Position numbers and translations under genes: made by a program
Shown here: one piece after another, positions 1 to 7,266 of the stretch
How positions within the stretch are numbered: position 1 is the stretch's first letter
How the letters are laid out: each line of letters starts with the position of its first letter
The notes under the pieces: generated by a model
What the model saw: the letters and a program-made list of their open reading frames with translations, nothing else
Told to the model about the DNA's origin: nothing
Databases searched by the model: none
IMG/VR virus record: IMGVR_UViG_2740892231_000001
Length of the DNA: 21,088 nucleotides
Origin: a virus
Lineage: Duplodnaviria; Heunggongvirae; Uroviricota; Caudoviricetes
Reading direction: 5' to 3' (one strand)

Positions 1-777
1 GCATCCGGCCCTCCCGGCTCGCCTTTTTCGCCCTTCTCTCCCCGTTCACCTTTCACACCCTGAAGCCCCTGTGGTCCTGTCTCACCACGCTCACCCTTTG
101 GCCCACGCTCGCCGGTATCGCCTTTTGGCCCGGGAATACCCTGTGGCCCGGTGTCCCCCTTATCCCCCTTCGGTCCCCGCGCATTCTCTGCCCGTTTTTT
201 TGCCTCCTCCGCACTGGCTGCGGACGCTTCCGCACGTTTCAGGATTTCCGCTGCCACCGCTTCCAGCTCTGCAAGGGCTTTCGGGTAATANNNNNNNNNN
301 CCGCTCGCCGGTATCGCCTTTTGGCCCGGGAATACCCTGTGGCCCGGTGTCTCCCTTATCCCCCTTCGGTCCCCGCGCATTCTCTGCCCGTTTCTTCGCT
401 TCCTCTGCACTCGCCGCTGACGCTTCCGCACGTTTCAGGATTTCCGCTGCCACCGCTTCCAGCTCTGCAAGGGCTTTCGGGTAATACTGTGCGTCTTCCA
501 GGTCCATCAGAAATTTATTCAGCGTTCCCGGTGCAGAATCCGCCTTCACCAGAATGTCACCCACATATGACGGCGCGTACCCTTCCGTGTTCAGCGTCAC
601 CCGGTACAACCCCGGCTCAACATCCATACTGTAACTGCCGGTTTCCCCCGGCTGACCATACGCCACCGTGGTGACAATCACCGTCTCCGTTGTGCGGCGC
701 GCTTTCAGCTCTATCGTGCATCCCGGTACCGCTTTTCCCGTACCATCCTTCAGCACACCCGATATTCTGACTGTCAT
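1..777 (-). CDS. stf: Side tail fibre protein, N-terminal part (partial; gene continues beyond the window start; reading frame broken by the 10-N gap at 291-300)
   Basis: ATG at 777-775 preceded by GGGGGA RBS. N-terminus [15 protein letters not shown]... resembles lambda Stf N-terminus [15 protein letters not shown] (recalled). Collagen-like [24 protein letters not shown] repeats; translating the minus strand of 1-290 continues Gly-X-Y repeats to base 1. Confidence 0.8.
291..300. other. 10-N assembly gap inside stf, flanked by a ~185-bp imperfect direct duplication (106-290 and 302-486)
   Basis: Run of n. The flanks are near-identical; all differences I checked are synonymous in the stf frame. 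Confidence 0.9.
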
Positions 778-790
778 GGATTTCCCCCAT

Positions 791-824
791 AAAAAAACCG
801 CAGTACCGGTTTCCCGGCCTGCGG
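791..824 (-). terminator. Rho-independent terminator immediately upstream of the stf RBS
   Basis: Minus strand reads CCGCAG-g-CCGG-gaaa-CCGG-ta-CUGCGG followed by U7 (plus-strand A-run 791-797). The stf start follows about 14 nt downstream. Confidence 0.55.
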
Positions 825-919
825 TAAAATTTGTGGTTTGTTGGTGCTAAAACGGTGCCGTCCGGCTGACCACCCTCAGCAACCGGTCGGCGGGGGATAT
901 TCTCCCCCGCCACGGTTTC

Positions 920-1060
920 TTACTGCTTACACTGTAAGAACGCCGCAATCTCCGCGCCCGCTATCCGGAACCGGAACTCGCACAGTGAAGTGTGGGTGAT
1001 CCAGATAATGAGCACTACCGTGATACAAATCACGGTGGTTTTTAACGGTTTTTGCGACAT
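920..1060 (-). CDS. Hok/Gef-family type I toxin-like small membrane protein (46 aa: MSQKPLKTTVICITVVLIIWITHTSLCEFRFRIAGAEIAAFLQCKQ)
   Basis: Hand-translated; below the 60-aa cutoff of the ORF track. ATG at 1060 with AAGGAG RBS 8 nt upstream, TAA at 922-920. Hydrophobic helix VICITVVLIIW resembles Gef IVICITAVV; SLCEFRFR and EIAAFLQCK resemble Hok/Gef/HokA motifs (DLCEVHIR, EVAAF, AAFLACK), recalled from memory. Confidence 0.6.
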   Translation of the reverse strand: MSQKPLKTTVICITVVLIIWITHTSLCEFRFRIAGAEIAAFLQCKQ

Positions 1061-1184
1061 AAACGCTTGCTCCTTTTACGGAGAGGCGCTAACCTTTCAC
1101 TTGCTTAGGATGAATGGTCAGGCCTCGGGTTAAACATGAATGTTTGTCCGGGGCCTTTTCACATCCGGCCTTCAGGTGTTCCCT

Positions 1185-1194
1185 NNNNNNNNNN
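1185..1194. other. 10-N gap in the J/hok intergenic region, flanked by a 66-bp duplication (1119-1184 and 1217-1282)
   Basis: Run of n with the same sequence on both sides. Confidence 0.9.
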
Positions 1195-1356
1195 CAATTT
1201 GCTGAAGATCGAAAGTCAGGCCTCGGGTTAAACATGAATGTTTGTCCGGGGCCTTTTCACATCCGGCCTTCAGGTGTTCCCTCCGGCCATCAGCCAAAGG
1301 CACCCGCGCATACTGTACGGTTTTTGTCTCCTTCCGGCAATCCCGGGGCGCGATGT

Positions 1357-4300
1357 TCAGCGGATACTGATCCCCGCGCTGTTTTTCTTCACCACTATCG
1401 CCTGAAGGTTACTGATACGTGAACTGCCAAAACTCCCGTTCTGACGTCGTGAACTTACGGTAAAACTCAGGGTGATATGACCATGACCGGCTGGCATATC
1501 GATGATCCCGCTGAAAATTCCCGGCTCTGTCACTGACCTGCCTGAATAAATCCGGCGTCCGTTCTGATCAACATGCAGGAAGCACTCTGTCCAGATGTCA
1601 TTACTGGTGCGGGATTCCTGTTTTGACCCGACATAGATTATCGGCGGGATTATAATCTGCCGGTCAAAGCTGTGATCGTCATACACCGTCAGCGTTCGTG
1701 TACCGTTCGCAAGGTAACTACCATCCACCGGAAAAGCCACCCCTGCACATTTCACAAGATCACCAATAATGTTCTCCGCTTTCAGCGTGCCATTTATCGT
1801 ACAGTTCTCCGCTATCACGACATTATTGAGCGTGCCCGAGTTCGCACTGATATGTCCGCTGATGTCCGCATTGCGGGCCGTCAGCCTGCCCTCCGGCGTC
1901 AGGGAGAACGTCGGGGGATTGCCGGACGAGGTGATGCTCACTGCAAACAGTCGCTTCAGGAACACGTCGTTCATGAACAGCTGATTCCCCTGCGCCACAA
2001 ACAGCGGCGTGGTGTTGCCGTTCTCCGGGTTAATCATCGCGATACGGTCCGCCTGCAGCAGTATATTGCTCAGGGGCTGGCCATCAGCATCCTCAATCCC
2101 CGCACCAATACCGGCAACATACGGAATGCCGTTTTTTGTTTTCTGCACCTTCAGCATGTACAGCGCAGCCAGGTCGTTATTTGTGTCTGTCTGCACCCGC
2201 TGTATNNNNNNNNNNAATATTGCTCAGGGGCTGGCCATCAGCATCCTCAATCCCCGCACCTATACCGGCAACATACGGAATGCCGTTTTTCGTTTTCTGC
2301 ACCTTCAGCATGTACAGCGCAGCCAGGTCGTTATTTGTGTCTGTCTGCACCCGCTGTATCTGCTGTATGGTGGCACTCTGGTCTTCCAGGGTTTTACTGA
2401 CCGTCTGTGTGATTTCATTGCGGGTTTCTGTGATGGTGGTCTTCATCTCCGCCATCTCATCATCAAGCTGGCTGTTATCAATCAGCTCCCACATCCCCTG
2501 TGCCAGATGTGTCTTCCCGATTTCTCCTCTGAAAAAGTCCAGATACCCTTCCGCATCATTGCTCGCCCGGCCACTGGCTTCCACAAACGCAGATTTCCCC
2601 ACCAGATTGACGCTGCGCACATAAAACCAGAAATCCTTCCCCGGCTTAATGTGCGGGCCGGAGACACTCCACTGGCTGCCTGTCCCCAGATAACGGGCAA
2701 AGGTTTCCACCTGTGCCATGTCCGTGATGCGTTTTTCTGAGAACCAGAATTCAGACTGTACCGTCGGGTCATACACCGCCAGCACCGGTACTGCTGTTAT
2801 CTGATAATACCCCGGCGTCAGCTCAATGCTGGCCGGTGCTGCAGGCGCATTAATCCGGAACGCGGTGGTGGCAGGTTCGCCCTGCTGGCCGTAGCTGTTT
2901 ATCGCCCTGACCGTCAGGGTGTATTCCCCCAGAGGCAGGCCACTGAAACGGTGCTCCGTGTCGGCAGTGATGGCGGTGGTCACCAGGCGGCTGTTTTCAC
3001 CACTGCCACTGGTCAGGCGCAGACTGAAGCGCACGCCCTTCACCACCCGCGGCGTGTCCCATTTCGCCAGCGCCAGATACTGGCCGTCTGAGGCACTCAC
3101 CTCCACCGTGAGGTGCTGCACTGCCGGCGGGATGACGCTGTTCAGTGAACCGGTGAGCGGCTCAAAGGTGGCCCCGTTATCCACGATGGCTTCTTTTTCC
3201 GGTACGTGCTGCACTGCCGTGATGGCAAAGGTGCCGTCCGTGTTTTCCCGGATGGAAACACAGCGGAACAGGCGACGACGCAGTGACGGCAGGGAGAGTC
3301 CCCACACACCGTATGTCTCCACGCCATCAGGCAGGACGCTGACCTGTATCCGGTCAGGGGCGGGGTGTGCAGTGATGTCCACGCGCACCGGCTTACCGCT
3401 GCCGTTAATCAGGTTCACCGTCGANNNNNNNNNNGACACAGCGGAACAGGCGACGGCGCAGTGACGGCAGGGAGAGTCCCCACACCCCGTATGTCTCCAC
3501 ACCATCAGGCAGGGTACTGACCTGTATCCGGTCCGGGGCGGGGTGTGCAGTGATGTCCACGCGCACCGGCTTACCGCTGCCGTTAATCAGGTTCACCGTC
3601 GATGTCCCTGCTTCCGGCAGTGTCACCTCACGGTCCAGCGTCAGGGTACGGCTGGCGGCATCGATGGACAGGATGCGTCCGCCGGTCAGGGTCCCTGCGT
3701 AGTCGTTATCACAGATTTCAATAATGTCACCGGGCGTGTGCCGCAGCCCCTGTGACCCGAGCGTGAAATCCACCGTCTGCGTTTCCAGCAGTTCTGTCTT
3801 TATCACCCACAGTCCGGCACGGTGGGCCTGACCGCGGCTGGTACAGCCGAACGCATCCATCTTCAGCAGATTGCGCCCGTAGCGCAGGATGGCGTCCGGG
3901 TCTTCCACCAGTTCCGTGGAAGTCTGCCAGCCGTTCTGCGGGTCGGTGTAATTCACCTCCACCGCCGTGTGCCGGTCCTTCAGGGCACTGAAGCTGTAGC
4001 GGAACCCCACGCCGTTATCATCCACCACCACATCGCTGTTGGTGTACGGCCACACCACATCCGACGGGCGGTCCTGAACGAACGTCAGCGTCTGGCCGTT
4101 CCATACCGGCATACAGCGCATCGCCGAGCAGAAATCCCCCAGGACATCCCACACCTTACGCTGCTGTGACAGGTACGCATTGAAAGTCATCCGCGGCTCT
4201 GTTCCCCCGAAACCATCCGGGACCGTCTGGTCACAGTACTGCCCGATGGCATACAGTGCCCACTTGTCCACGTCCGGGGCCCCCAGGCGTTTTCCCATGC

Positions 4301-5352
4301 CGTAGCGCGGGTGGGTCAGCATGTCCCACAGGCACCAGGCCGGGTTATTGCTGTATGCCGGTTTCAGNNNNNNNNNNAAAGGTCATCCGCGGCTCTGTGC
4401 CCCCGAAACCATCCGGGACCGTCTGGTCGCAGTACTGCCCGATGGCATACAGTGCCCACTTGTCCACATCCGCGGCCCCCAGGCGTTTTCCCATCCCGTA
4501 GCGCGGGTGGGTCAGCATGTCCCACAGGCACCAGGCCGGGTTATTGCTGTATGCCGGTTTCAGACTCCCGTCCCAGATACCGCTGTAGGTGCGTTTTTCC
4601 GGGTCATAGTTTGACGGCACCTGAATGATGCGACCACGGATATGGTAGTTCACCGTCAGCTGCTGGCCACCAAACTGCTCCGCATCCACCTGCAGCCCCA
4701 CAATGGCCGTGTTCGGGTAGCACTGTTTCACATCGATGATTTCGGTGTATGACGACCACAGCGTTCTGTTCTGCAGCTGGTCCGTGGTGCTGTCCGCCGT
4801 CACCCTGACCATCCGGATGTTAAAGGGGCGCTCAGGGAGATTATTCAGAATCACCGACGTCAGATACTGCGAGGTGGTCTTGCCGTTAATGGTGACATCC
4901 TTCTCCGTCACCCAGTGCCCGTTACGCTCAAGCTGAATCAGCAGGCGGACAGAAGAGGGATTACGGTCACCCTTTGAGGTGGTCTCCACCAGTGACTGTA
5001 CCCCGAAGGTGACCCGCAGACGGTCAATGTTCGCTGACGTGATGGTGCGCGTCACCGGCTTTGCCTTCGTCACCTCCACGCCCAGTGCGGTTTCTGCCCC
5101 GGAGGACTCAAAGCCTTCCGGCGGTGTCTGCTCCTGCTCCCCGGCACGCCAGACGGCGGTCACACCGTGTATCACGGGATTACCGTCCGTGTCCGTCAGC
5201 GGGGTTTTGTTCACCAGAATACTCTGCAGTCCCTTCACCGGACCTTCCACCGGTCCCTCACCAATGGCATCAATCACGCTCATCATCTGCGTGGATTTGA
5301 GATTGTCCTTCGCCTCACGCGGTGTGTGCCCCTTGCCGCCCCCTTTACCCAC
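1357..5352 (-). CDS. J: Tail tip / host specificity protein J (central tail fibre); reading frame apparently broken three times by 10-N gaps with duplicated flanks
   Basis: GTG start at 5352 with AGGAG RBS. N-terminus [22 protein letters not shown] and C-terminus ...[17 protein letters not shown]...[10 protein letters not shown] match lambda gpJ (recalled) across the four ORF fragments 4345-5352, 3405-4322, 2177-3505 and 1357-2196. Net length after removing duplications is about 1150 aa, against 1132 aa for lambda J. Confidence 0.95.
2206..2215. other. 10-N gap inside J, flanked by a ~144-bp imperfect duplication (2062-2205 and 2216-2359)
   Basis: Run of n with near-identical flanks (2 mismatches seen). 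Confidence 0.9.
3425..3434. other. 10-N gap inside J, flanked by a ~168-bp imperfect duplication (3257-3424 and 3435-3602)
   Basis: Run of n with near-identical flanks carrying several mismatches. Confidence 0.9.
4368..4377. other. 10-N gap inside J, flanked by a ~185-bp imperfect duplication (4183-4367 and 4378-4563)
   Basis: Run of n with near-identical flanks carrying several mismatches. Confidence 0.9.
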
Positions 5353-6522: not shown

Positions 6523-7266
6523 TTTTCAGAATACCTCTCCCGTTTACTCAGTTGTTCAGGTATATGGTGAAGCAGTTCACCGTTGCCACAGTAAATGGCG
6601 GCATGATTCGGCACCGATGAACCAAAGCAGCACAGCAGGATATCGCCCGCCTGTGCACAGGACGGAGACACCCGGTAAAAGCCGTTGTCTGCCAGGTTGT
6701 CCAGGTACAGGTTCTGACCGTTGCGCCACCAGTCATCCTCACGCACAAAATCCGGCAGCGTTATCCCCGCCAGATGGTATGCATCCCGGAACAGGGTGTA
6801 ACAGTCCGTCACACCGTGTTCAAAGCGCCGTCCGGTCAGGTGCGGCACACAGCGGAACCGGTGAATGTCACCCCGGCAGACCAGCCACCAGGGCAGGGCA
6901 CTCTTTATCTGCAGCCGCCGGTCCGCCTCGCTCAGCCAGGGCAGTCCACCGGGATGACTGTGGACCAGCGCCACAATCTCCCCCTGCATCTGTGCCTGCA
7001 GCCAGTCTTCCGGTGCAATACGAAAATACGCCTCCGGCTCTGCGGAGATATTCACGCAGGACTGGTACCGTTCGCCCTCCGGNNNNNNNNNNCTGTGCCT
7101 GCAGCCAGTCTTCCGGCGCAATACGAAAATACGCCTCCGGCTCTGCGGAGATATTCACGCAGGACTGGTACCGTTCGCCCTCCGGGGTGCTTATCACGAA
7201 GCCGCACGACTCCGCAGGCGCACACCGCCGGGCATGCGCCAGAATCACTGATTCAGTCTGTGTCAT
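6420..7266 (-). CDS. K: Tail tip assembly protein K (NlpC/P60 plus JAMM/MPN domain); interrupted by the 10-N gap at 7083-7092 with duplicated flanks
   Basis: ATG at 7266. MTQTESVILAHARRCAPAESCGFV... matches the lambda gpK N-terminus (recalled). HSHPGG metal-binding motif. C-terminal part ...LLCCFGSSVPNHAAIYCG... Overlaps the I start by about 100 bp, as in lambda. Confidence 0.9.
7083..7092. other. 10-N gap inside K, flanked by a ~94-bp duplication (6989-7082 and 7093-7186)
   Basis: Run of n with near-identical flanks (1 mismatch). Confidence 0.9.

What the first reader, a model, noticed from the sequence alone, without database searches (positions are those of the whole stretch)
1061..1356. 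Highly structured, repeat-containing leader upstream of the hok-like ORF
The region between the J stop and the hok-like start contains nested palindromes (aaacat-ga-atgttt, ccggggcc, ggcc...ggcc) within a 66-bp element that appears on both sides of the 10-N gap with different upstream contexts. Hok-family mRNAs are regulated by long-range folding and a short antisense RNA against the leader, so this is where a Sok-like antisense gene would sit. The gap prevents a firm model.
Basis: inference. Interest (0 to 1): 0.4.

Follow-up and report, generated by a model that had tools for sequence, protein, structure and literature searches.

The report
Prophage hok/sok leader, duplicated by assembly
The region is the regulatory leader of an ordinary hok/sok-type toxin–antitoxin module sitting between the tail genes of an E. 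coli lambdoid prophage; the "repeat" across the N-gap is an assembly artefact, and the nested palindromes are the hairpin of the predicted Sok-like antisense RNA.

Summary
The repeat is in the text: 68 identical bases (not 66) at 1117-1184 and 1215-1282. It is an assembly artefact. All six 10-N gaps in the window repeat exactly 68 bases of the left contig's end. The collapsed single-copy sequence matches complete E. coli genomes 622/622 at 99.5% in one piece.

With the gap closed, the leader is a hok-type mRNA leader. Rfam RF01794 matches full length at 55 bits (gathering score 59, E 2e-11), and sister alleles score 59.6-63.5. The ORF at 920-1060(-) is Pfam Hok/Gef.

A Sok-like antisense gene is predicted on the + strand: -35 TTGCTC, 17 nt, -10 TAACCT, start about 1103, hairpin 1121-1155, then UUUU. 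The -10 hexamer is the same as the one apparently mutated in the published sokW promoter-less mutant. The start maps onto the annotated 5' ends of sokC and sokW.

The two "upstream contexts" are two alleles of a 25-27-nt hypervariable block, the Sok 5' tail and its target hairpin. There are 20 versions among 75 phage loci; all are predicted to fold as hairpins.

No mok frame exists in this allele. Transcripts and toxicity are untested. Verdict: a new member of a known kind; modest interest.

The parts
1357..1359 (-). Stop codon of the tail-tip gene J, the upstream boundary of the intergenic leader.
   Evidence: The ORF at 1357-2196(-) matches Pfam Ig_GpJ_C and Phage_Tail_Tip. It is annotated gpJ in closed genomes.
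1312..1340 (-). Candidate hok promoter: -35 TTGCCG (1340-1335), 17-nt spacer, -10 TACAGT (1317-1312), then 6 nt to the GGGUGCC 5' end.
   Evidence: Read from the sequence. The -10 position holds TACAGT, TACATT or TAGAAT in all relatives. K-12 hokC has the same layout, TATAAT + 6 nt + GGGUGC. It was not flagged by the simple consensus scan, so it is inferred.
1285..1305 (-). 5' end of the hok mRNA (GGGUGCCUUUGGCUGAUGGCC), a tac-like element. It pairs with the 3' fbi-like element in the full-length RNA and with GGCCCC locally in the truncated RNA.
   Evidence: Rfam RF01794 model position 1 aligns here.
1185..1282 (.). Assembly artefact to be deleted: 10 N (1185-1194), a 20-nt allele-B fragment from a paralogous prophage (1195-1214), and a redundant copy of the 68-mer (1215-1282 = 1117-1184).
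   Evidence: The same 68-nt overlap occurs at all six gaps, and closed genomes hold a single copy.
1121..1155 (+). The nested palindrome. On the + strand it is the Sok-like terminator hairpin GGCCUCGGG-UU-AAACAU-GA-AUGUUU-G-UCCGGGGCC, followed by UUUU (1156-1159). On the - strand it forms hairpin 2 of the hok leader.
   Evidence: Fold -21.5 kcal/mol, z -3.1. It aligns to the RF01794 hairpin and is homologous to the sokC and sokW 3' hairpins.
1103..1160 (+). Predicted Sok-like antisense RNA of about 58 nt: a largely single-stranded 5' tail of about 18 nt (the fold predicts one weak 3-bp stem at 1109-1119), then the hairpin and U-tract. The ends are inferred to within a few nt.
   Evidence: The annotated 5' end of K-12 sokC maps to RF01794 model position 106, which is window 1103. 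The annotated 933W sokW start lies 6 nt after the same -10 hexamer.
1067..1095 (+). Candidate Sok promoter: -35 TTGCTC (1067-1072), 17-nt spacer, -10 TAACCT (1090-1095).
   Evidence: 933W sokW has TTGCCT-N17-TAACCT at the homologous place. Comparing Takada et al. primer YO-421 with the 933W sequence indicates that TAACCT was changed to GAGCCG in their promoter-less mutant, which lost antitoxin activity (PMC8621323). The hexamers are near-invariant across alleles: -10 is TATCCT in L036, and -35 differs in one tandem copy. It was not flagged by the consensus scan, matching only 6 of 12 positions.
1083..1126 (-). Sok-target (sokT-like) hairpin of the hok leader. Its upper stem and 9-nt loop (1095-1119) form the hypervariable specificity block.
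   Evidence: Hairpin folds for every allele. Compensatory changes occur in 3 upper-stem pairs. Diversity is 0.241 in the block against 0.025 in the rest of the transcript. There are 20 versions among 75 loci.
1070..1075 (-). hok Shine-Dalgarno AAGGAG, 9 nt before the ATG. It is sequestered in the local hairpin CUCC-GUAAAA-GGAG.
   Evidence: Read from the sequence. Folds. RF01794 3' hairpin.
920..1060 (-). hok-like toxin gene, 46 aa (MSQKPLKTTVICITVVLIIWITHTSLCEFRFRIAGAEIAAFLQCKQ).
   Evidence: Pfam PF01848 HOK_GEF, 42.2 bits against a cutoff of 22. Annotated 'Hok/Gef family protein' in RefSeq.
889..911 (-). G+C-rich hairpin directly after the hok stop codon (GGCGGGGGAGAAUAUCCCCCGCC).
   Evidence: The loop varies and the stem is kept in relatives.
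854..871 (-). fbi-like 3' element (GGUCAGCCGGACGGCACC), predicted to pair with mRNA nt 2-23.
   Evidence: MFE and centroid of the 419-nt transcript. GGCACC(C) is kept in distant relatives. My reading of the alignment suggests one compensatory G-C to A-U change.
791..824 (-). Intrinsic terminator of the hok transcript (CCGCAGGCCGGGAAACCGGUACUGCGG + U7), just before the tail-fibre start at 777.
   Evidence: Read from the sequence. Fold.

Best explanation
Window 1061-1356, once the artefactual 98 bases (1185-1282) are removed, is the 5' leader of a hok/sok-family type I toxin-antitoxin transcript. It sits between gene J and the tail-fibre gene of an E. coli lambdoid prophage.

Shown here.
- The duplication is a contig-overlap artefact.
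- The ORF is a Hok/Gef toxin.
- The leader is homologous, in sequence and structure, to hok leaders (Rfam RF01794).
- The nested palindrome is the hairpin shared by the leader and its antisense strand.
- The two contexts on either side of the gap are alleles of a hypervariable 25-27-nt block.

Inferred.
- A transcript of about 419 nt starts at about 1305 and ends at the terminator 791-824.
- As full-length RNA, its 5' end is locked to an fbi-like 3' element, as in R1 hok mRNA. This state should be inert.
- After 3' trimming it refolds into four hairpins that expose the target hairpin (1083-1126).
- A Sok-like RNA of about 58 nt is made from the + strand (promoter 1067-1095, start about 1103, hairpin 1121-1155 plus UUUU). 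Its largely single-stranded 5' tail pairs with the loop and 5' arm of that hairpin.
- The duplex then probably triggers RNase III cleavage and decay of the hok mRNA.
- This allele has no mok reading frame, and the Sok site ends about 30 nt upstream of the hok ribosome-binding site. Repression is therefore probably through mRNA decay or refolding, not through blocking mok translation.
- The hypervariable block would set which Sok recognises which hok mRNA.
For: Artefact.
- Exactly 68 nt are repeated at all six gaps, each preceded by a diverged paralogous prefix.
- The collapsed sequence matches complete genomes 622/622 at 99.5%.

Family membership.
- PF01848 scores 42.2 bits.
- RF01794 scores 55 bits, full length, E 2e-11 on the gap-closed sequence. 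It scores 42 bits with a 101-nt insertion on the window as given.
- Sister alleles score 63.5, 63.5 and 59.6 bits, at or above the gathering score of 59.
- The locus is 78% identical at the nucleotide level to a 46-aa hok locus downstream of lom in 933W-type Stx phages.

Sok gene.
- The -10 TAACCT and the 17-nt spacing are the same as in 933W sokW. Primer comparison indicates this hexamer was mutated in the published promoter-less mutant (PMC8621323).
- The annotated 5' ends of sokC and sokW map to window 1102-1103.
- The fold gives a mostly unpaired tail plus a hairpin, z -3.1.

mRNA folding.
- The full-length MFE is -183 kcal/mol, z -6.9, with a helix of about 22 bp between the 5' and 3' ends.
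- The 1-330 truncation folds into the Rfam-like four-hairpin leader.

Specificity block.
- 9 of the 13 differences between alleles A and B fall in 25 nt (Fisher p 1e-9). Diversity is 0.241 there, against 0.025 in the rest of the transcript and 0.009 in hok.
- There are 20 versions among 75 loci with identical flanks, and every version is predicted to fold as a hairpin.
- Both-sided compensatory changes occur in 3 upper-stem pairs.
- Cognate tail/target duplexes are -31 to -35 kcal/mol. Non-cognate duplexes are mostly -7 to -19.
Against: - No expression data exist. Neither transcript, nor toxicity, nor antitoxin activity was tested.
- This allele falls 4 bits short of the Rfam gathering score.
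- The simple sigma-70 scan flagged neither promoter; the Sok promoter matches only 6 of 12 consensus positions. It also did not flag the Sok hairpin as a terminator, since only 4 U follow the stem.
- The mok frame, a defining part of the classical mechanism, is absent.
- In a crude constraint fold, Sok binding does not change accessibility of the hok ribosome-binding site. How Sok would repress is therefore open.
- One non-cognate pair (E tail on C target) still gives -26.9 kcal/mol.
- Same-genome allele pairs differ no more often than chance predicts: 9 of 11 differ, and about 88% would be expected to differ.
Confidence: 0.85

Rival explanations
1. The 68-bp element is truly duplicated in the genome. 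This would give two Sok-like hairpins, or two antisense genes, in one leader.
For: The window text contains two identical copies with different left contexts. Some distant relatives do carry two or three tandem hok/sok leaders (L036, L038).
Against: The same exact 68-nt repeat occurs at all six N-gaps, including those inside the J and tail-fibre coding sequence. Complete genomes align to the single-copy version without a gap. The tandem leaders in L036 and L038 are whole modules about 500 nt apart, not a 98-nt repeat.
Confidence: 0.03
2. The locus is a decaying hok remnant. mok has been lost, the leader is no longer regulated by an antisense RNA, and the palindromes are leftover structure.
For: No ORF overlaps the hok start in alleles A, B or the 933W-like allele. 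The Rfam score is below the gathering score. The promoter matches are weak.
Against: hok is intact and nearly invariant, with diversity 0.009. The promoter hexamers, the ribosome-binding-site hairpin, and the tac and fbi elements are conserved, while the target hairpin changes by compensatory substitutions. That pattern indicates selection, not decay. Matches to at least part of the locus occur in 1530 of 5426 complete E. coli genomes; 116 cover at least 80% of it.
Confidence: 0.08
3. The hairpin is mainly a transcription terminator or attenuator for convergent or late-operon transcription between J and the tail-fibre gene, not part of an antisense RNA gene.
For: On the + strand the G+C-rich stem is followed by UUUU. 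The site lies between two late genes.
Against: On the - strand, which is the direction of J and the tail fibre, no U-tract follows the hairpin. The hairpin aligns to a conserved element of hok leaders. On the + strand it sits where sokC and sokW end.
Confidence: 0.04

Closest known systems
hokW/mokW/sokW of Stx phage 933W / Sakai prophage Sp5 (experimentally shown type I TA; Takada et al. 2021, PMC8621323)
   Same: It is a prophage-borne hok/sok module. The leader is of the RF01794 type. The Sok promoter has the same -10 (TAACCT) and the same 17-nt spacer. The Sok start lies 6-7 nt downstream of the -10. The antisense RNA ends in a hairpin plus U-tract.
   Different: HokW is 51 aa and lies elsewhere in the phage, not between J/lom and the tail fibre. 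It has a mok frame whose AUG sits in the Sok target hairpin; the locus studied here has none. Its leader scores 113.5 bits on RF01794, against 55 here. Hairpin 2 is longer in sokW.
The 46-aa hok locus downstream of lom in 933W-type Stx phages (e.g. Shigella phage 75/02 Stx gp62, labelled 'MokW-like host killing'; 933W L0129 region)
   Same: It is the closest relative found: 78% nucleotide identity over the whole transcript, a 46-aa Hok with the same N- and C-termini, the same tac, fbi, ribosome-binding-site hairpin and Sok promoter hexamers, and the same position after the tail genes.
   Different: Its target block is a different version (CUAACACUUCGUACCUUAAGCAAGUAGA). Hairpin 2 lacks the AAACAU/AUGUUU palindrome. 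The upstream neighbour is lom rather than J.
hokC/mokC/sokC (gef) of E. coli K-12 and hok/sok (parB) of plasmid R1
   Same: The overall leader architecture is shared, and the position of the antisense gene matches. From established knowledge of R1, these systems have 5'-3' fold-back inhibition and recognition of a target hairpin loop by the Sok 5' tail. A 5'-3' helix and a mostly unpaired 5' tail are also predicted here.
   Different: Those systems use mok, and Sok blocks mok translation. mokC was found as a control. No such frame exists here. hokC scores 118 bits on RF01794, against 55 here.
Antisense-RNA specificity loops that define plasmid incompatibility or paralogue insulation (CopA/CopT of IncFII, RNAI/RNAII of ColE1, Sib/Ibs). 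This is an analogy from general knowledge, not tested here.
   Same: A short recognition loop or stem varies between otherwise near-identical copies, while its structure is kept by compensatory change.
   Different: The molecules are different and there is no homology. Orthogonality here is only predicted from duplex energies.

Membership tests
[quoted passage not shown] | Small hydrophobic Hok/Gef toxin ORF (Pfam PF01848) | tested here: met
   The ORF at 920-1060(-) scores 42.2 bits against a cutoff of 22, E 6e-11.
[quoted passage not shown] | Leader RNA matches the hok-leader/sok covariance model (Rfam RF01794) at its gathering score | tested here: inconclusive
   The gap-closed allele A scores 55 bits against a gathering score of 59. 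The match is full length (1-157) with E 2e-11. The window as given scores 42.2 bits. Sister alleles of the same locus score 63.5, 63.5 and 59.6 bits.
[quoted passage not shown] | Cis-encoded antisense Sok gene inside the leader, with its own promoter and terminator | tested here: met
   This holds at the sequence level only. The elements are TTGCTC-N17-TAACCT, a start at about 1103, the hairpin 1121-1155 and UUUU. Their positions are homologous to the annotated sokC and sokW. The consensus scan did not flag them.
[quoted passage not shown] | Sok RNA is actually transcribed and neutralises Hok | not testable with these tools
   This needs Northern blot, RACE and toxicity assays.
[quoted passage not shown] | A mok reading frame that starts in the Sok target and overlaps hok (translational coupling) | tested here: not met
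   The control scans recover mokC and mokW. Alleles A, B and the 933W-like allele have no ATG/GTG/TTG ORF crossing the hok start. 73 of 107 leaders have none, and the rest are inconsistent in position.
[quoted passage not shown] | Long-range 5' (tac) to 3' (fbi) pairing in the full-length mRNA | tested here: met
   This is a prediction only. The MFE and centroid folds pair nt 2-23 with the element at 854-871; z is -6.9. GGGUGCC and GGCACC are conserved in distant relatives.
[quoted passage not shown] | Target hairpin with an exposed loop, complementary to the Sok 5' tail | tested here: met
   Every version of the block is predicted to fold as a hairpin; the loop is 9 nt in the common alleles. 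Compensatory pairs are present. The hairpin forms in the truncated RNA but not in the full-length RNA. The loops contain YUNR-like CUAA or UUCA, read directly from the sequence.
Genuine tandem or dispersed DNA repeat | Both copies present and contiguous in finished assemblies | tested here: not met
   Complete genomes hold a single copy. The same 68-nt overlap occurs at all six gaps.

The most novel reading that the evidence does not exclude
This J/lom-downstream hok/sok lineage may work without mok. Its 25-27-nt Sok-tail/target-hairpin block may be a fast-evolving specificity cassette that sorts otherwise near-identical prophage modules into mutually orthogonal groups. Each co-resident lambdoid prophage would then keep its own private killer/antidote pair, the antisense-RNA equivalent of plasmid incompatibility groups. 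Twenty or more versions were seen, and structure is kept by compensatory change.
Probability: 0.35. Interest if true: 0.5.

Novelty: new member of a known kind. Interest (0 to 1): 0.3.

Why it matters
There are two practical points. First, the N-gaps in this scaffold are not missing sequence. They are unmerged 68-nt contig overlaps at sites where paralogous prophages differ. Every feature that spans a gap, such as repeats, ORFs and frames, should therefore be re-read after collapsing. Second, the Sok-like RNA of this common prophage module goes unannotated, because this allele scores just under the Rfam gathering score. Matches to at least part of the locus occur in 1530 of 5426 complete E. 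coli genomes.

Biologically, the module belongs to a well-known family. Two side observations could be followed up: mok is missing, and variation is concentrated about ten-fold in the Sok recognition hairpin. Together they make a tidy natural test set for how type I antitoxin specificity evolves among co-resident prophages.

Tried and rejected
- An Rfam gathering-threshold scan of the whole window found nothing. The cause is the artefact together with a near-threshold allele, not absence of the family.
- The simple promoter/terminator scan flagged neither promoter nor the Sok or hok terminators. Its only hit was the complement of the post-hok hairpin. Promoter assignment therefore rests on homology to sokW, sokC and hokC.
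It worked with a 3-sequence alignment.
- The 10-codon uORF starting at the ATG inside the palindrome (AUGUUUAACCC...) was considered as a mok substitute and rejected. Its length changes with the allele, and the ATG is absent in distant relatives.
- I tested whether Sok binding would unmask or mask the hok ribosome-binding site. The constraint folds showed no change, so no structural switch is claimed.
- I tested whether co-resident prophages avoid sharing an allele. 9 of 11 same-genome pairs differ, which is about what allele frequencies predict (P same about 0.12). There is no evidence for avoidance.
- Identity with hokW/sokW was considered and rejected: the protein differs (51 aa, MKQQKAM...) and so does the genomic position.
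- Weak Rfam hits to Clostridiales-2 and isrK (E 0.2-1.5) over the post-hok hairpin were dismissed as chance.

Full report
**1. The observation**

The region 1061-1356 lies on the minus strand. It runs from the stop codon of a tail-tip gene J (ORF 1357-2196, Pfam Ig_GpJ_C and Phage_Tail_Tip) to the start of a 46-aa ORF (920-1060) that matches Pfam HOK_GEF at 42.2 bits against a cutoff of 22. A tail-fibre gene starts at 777.

It is 68 nt, not 66: 1117-1184 equals 1215-1282, extendable to 84 nt at 93%. The aaacat-ga-atgttt palindrome (1132-1145) is nested inside GGCCTCGG/CCGGGGCC (1121-1155).

**2. The repeat is an assembly artefact**

The window has six 10-N gaps. At every one, exactly 68 nt of the left contig's end recur on the right side of the gap. 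In each case the right contig first carries 20-118 nt that are a 65-96% identical paralogue of the left contig's preceding bases. This is what is expected when contigs from a repeat-rich (multi-prophage) genome overlap by a fixed length and are joined with Ns instead of being merged. A 68-nt overlap would be k-1 for an assembler k of 69; that is inference.

I removed 1185-1282 and searched the resulting 622-nt sequence against complete E. coli genomes. It aligns end to end in one ungapped piece at 99.5%, and 116 genomes cover at least 80% of it (alignment). RefSeq annotates gpJ, 'Hok/Gef family protein' and a tail-fibre gene there. So the leader is single-copy.

The 'different upstream context' on the right of the gap (CAATTTGCTGAAGATCGAAAG) is an allele of the same 20 nt. 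It occurs single-copy in another genome, where the right contig matches at 99.7%. The source genome therefore holds at least two paralogous copies of this module, and the scaffold may join parts of two prophages.

**3. What the leader is**

On the gap-closed sequence (L001), Rfam RF01794 matches full length (model 1-157) at 55 bits, E 2e-11. This family is named 'sok', but its model lies on the hok-mRNA strand, from the mRNA 5' end to the hok AUG. The score is just under the gathering score of 59.

On the window as given, the same hit drops to 42 bits, with the artefact modelled as a 101-nt insertion. That is why the gathering-threshold scan found nothing. Sister alleles of the same locus, differing mainly in the variable blocks, score 63.5, 63.5 and 59.6 bits. 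K-12 hokC and 933W hokW score 118 and 113.5 bits.

The closest relative in phage records is a 46-aa hok locus downstream of lom in 933W-type Stx phages. It is 78% identical over the whole transcript. It is distinct from the hokW/sokW module of those same phages, which has been characterised experimentally.

**4. Anatomy (coordinates)**

On the minus strand:
- Candidate hok promoter: TTGCCG (1340-1335), 17-nt spacer, TACAGT (1317-1312), then 6 nt to GGGUGCC at 1305. K-12 hokC has the same layout, TATAAT + 6 nt + GGGUGC.
- Leader hairpins.
- Ribosome-binding site AAGGAG (1075-1070), held in a CUCC/GGAG hairpin.
- hok.
- A G+C-rich hairpin (889-911).
- An fbi-like element (854-871).
- A terminator with U7 (791-824).

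The 419-nt transcript folds at -183 kcal/mol, z -6.9. A helix of about 22 bp joins nt 2-23 to the fbi-like element. A 1-330 truncation refolds into the four-hairpin Rfam-type leader, and the target hairpin is formed. This mirrors the established R1 model, in which the full-length mRNA is inert and the 3'-processed form is active. Here it is prediction only.

On the plus strand:
- TTGCTC (1067-1072), 17-nt spacer, TAACCT (1090-1095).
- A start at about 1103.
- A 5' tail of about 18 nt, mostly unpaired (the fold predicts one weak 3-bp stem at 1109-1119).
- The hairpin 1121-1155 and UUUU (-21.5 kcal/mol, z -3.1).

The 933W sokW promoter is TTGCCT-N17-TAACCT, and the annotated sokW start lies 6 nt downstream of it. 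I compared primer YO-421 of Takada et al. with this sequence. The comparison indicates that their promoter-less mutant, which lost antitoxin activity, changed TAACCT to GAGCCG (PMC8621323). The annotated 5' end of K-12 sokC falls on RF01794 model position 106, which is window 1103.

**5. The variable block**

Alleles A and B are 98% identical over 512 nt, yet 9 of their 13 differences fall in 25 nt (Fisher p 1e-9). Among 34 close loci from IMG/VR, diversity is 0.241 in the block, 0.025 in the rest of the transcript and 0.009 in hok.

A pattern scan required identical flanks of 16 and 13 nt. It found 75 viral loci carrying 20 different 25-27-nt blocks. Every version is predicted to fold as a hairpin. 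Three upper-stem pairs show changes on both sides.

The block is the predicted Sok 5' tail and its target. Cognate tail/target duplexes are -31 to -35 kcal/mol. Non-cognate duplexes are mostly -7 to -19, with one at -26.9. This block is exactly where the assembly graph forks, which explains why a contig ends there.

Co-resident copies often differ: 9 of 11 same-genome pairs do. Allele frequencies alone predict about that many, so active avoidance is not shown.

**6. What does not fit the classical family**

The control scans recover mokC and mokW. In contrast, the three most common versions (A, B and a 933W-like one) have no ATG/GTG/TTG ORF that crosses the hok start. 73 of 107 leaders have none, and in the rest the overlapping ORFs differ in start and end. 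One allele (L017) has a 69-aa mok-like ORF that starts at the ATG inside the palindrome.

The Sok site ends about 30 nt upstream of the hok ribosome-binding site. Constraining the Sok site as bound does not change predicted accessibility of that binding site. Repression by duplex-triggered RNase III decay is the most likely mechanism; the hokW-sokW system is partly dependent on RNase III and Hfq. That assignment is inferred.

**7. Literature and novelty**

hok genes are known to be enriched in prophages and have been catalogued at scale. That study explicitly did not analyse Sok or mok (bioRxiv 10.1101/2025.08.07.668861). hokW-sokW has been shown to aid Sp5 phage release (PMC8621323). I found no description of this hypervariable block or of a mok-less lineage in the searched library, but absence from that library is weak evidence.

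**Verdict**

The locus is a member of a known family. The repeat is an artefact. The specificity block and the missing mok are modest side findings.

Noticed in passing
window gaps 291-300, 2206-2215, 3425-3434, 4368-4377, 7083-7092: Each N-gap is flanked by the same kind of 68-nt contig overlap, preceded by a diverged paralogous prefix of 25-118 nt. ORFs called across them (the tail fibre at 160-777, and the J fragments at 1357-2196, 2177-3505 and 3405-4322) contain duplicated and possibly chimeric segments from different prophages.
   Followed up: partly
window 1160-1169 (mRNA GGAUGUGAAAAG): A second, biallelic block lies just 3' of the Sok hairpin: ATGTGAAAAG versus AAAGACGAAG in mRNA sense. 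It changes the Sok U-tract from CUUUUCACAU to CUUCGUCUUU and combines freely with the target-block alleles. Its meaning is unknown.
   Followed up: no
L036 62-219, 556-713, 1061-1189; L038 1054-1189, 1551-1710: Two distant relatives on IMG/VR contigs carry two or three tandem hok/sok leaders about 500 nt apart. Each has a different target block.
   Followed up: no
L045 670-810 (Shigella phage 75/02 Stx) and the 933W L0129 region: 933W-type Stx phages carry a second hok module of the type studied here downstream of lom, in addition to the characterised hokW/sokW. It is labelled 'hypothetical' or 'MokW-like host killing' in the records.
   Followed up: partly
window 927-1028 (-), and L017: The alternative frame across hok is open. 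It gives a 33-aa TTG ORF here, and in allele D (L017) it extends to a 69-aa mok-like ORF starting at the ATG in the palindrome. It may be a remnant of an ancestral mok.
   Followed up: partly
window 160-480 (-): The tail-fibre N-terminal region continues into collagen-like Gly-X-Y repeats ([23 protein letters not shown]). Gap 291-300 falls inside them, so repeat number there is unreliable.
   Followed up: no
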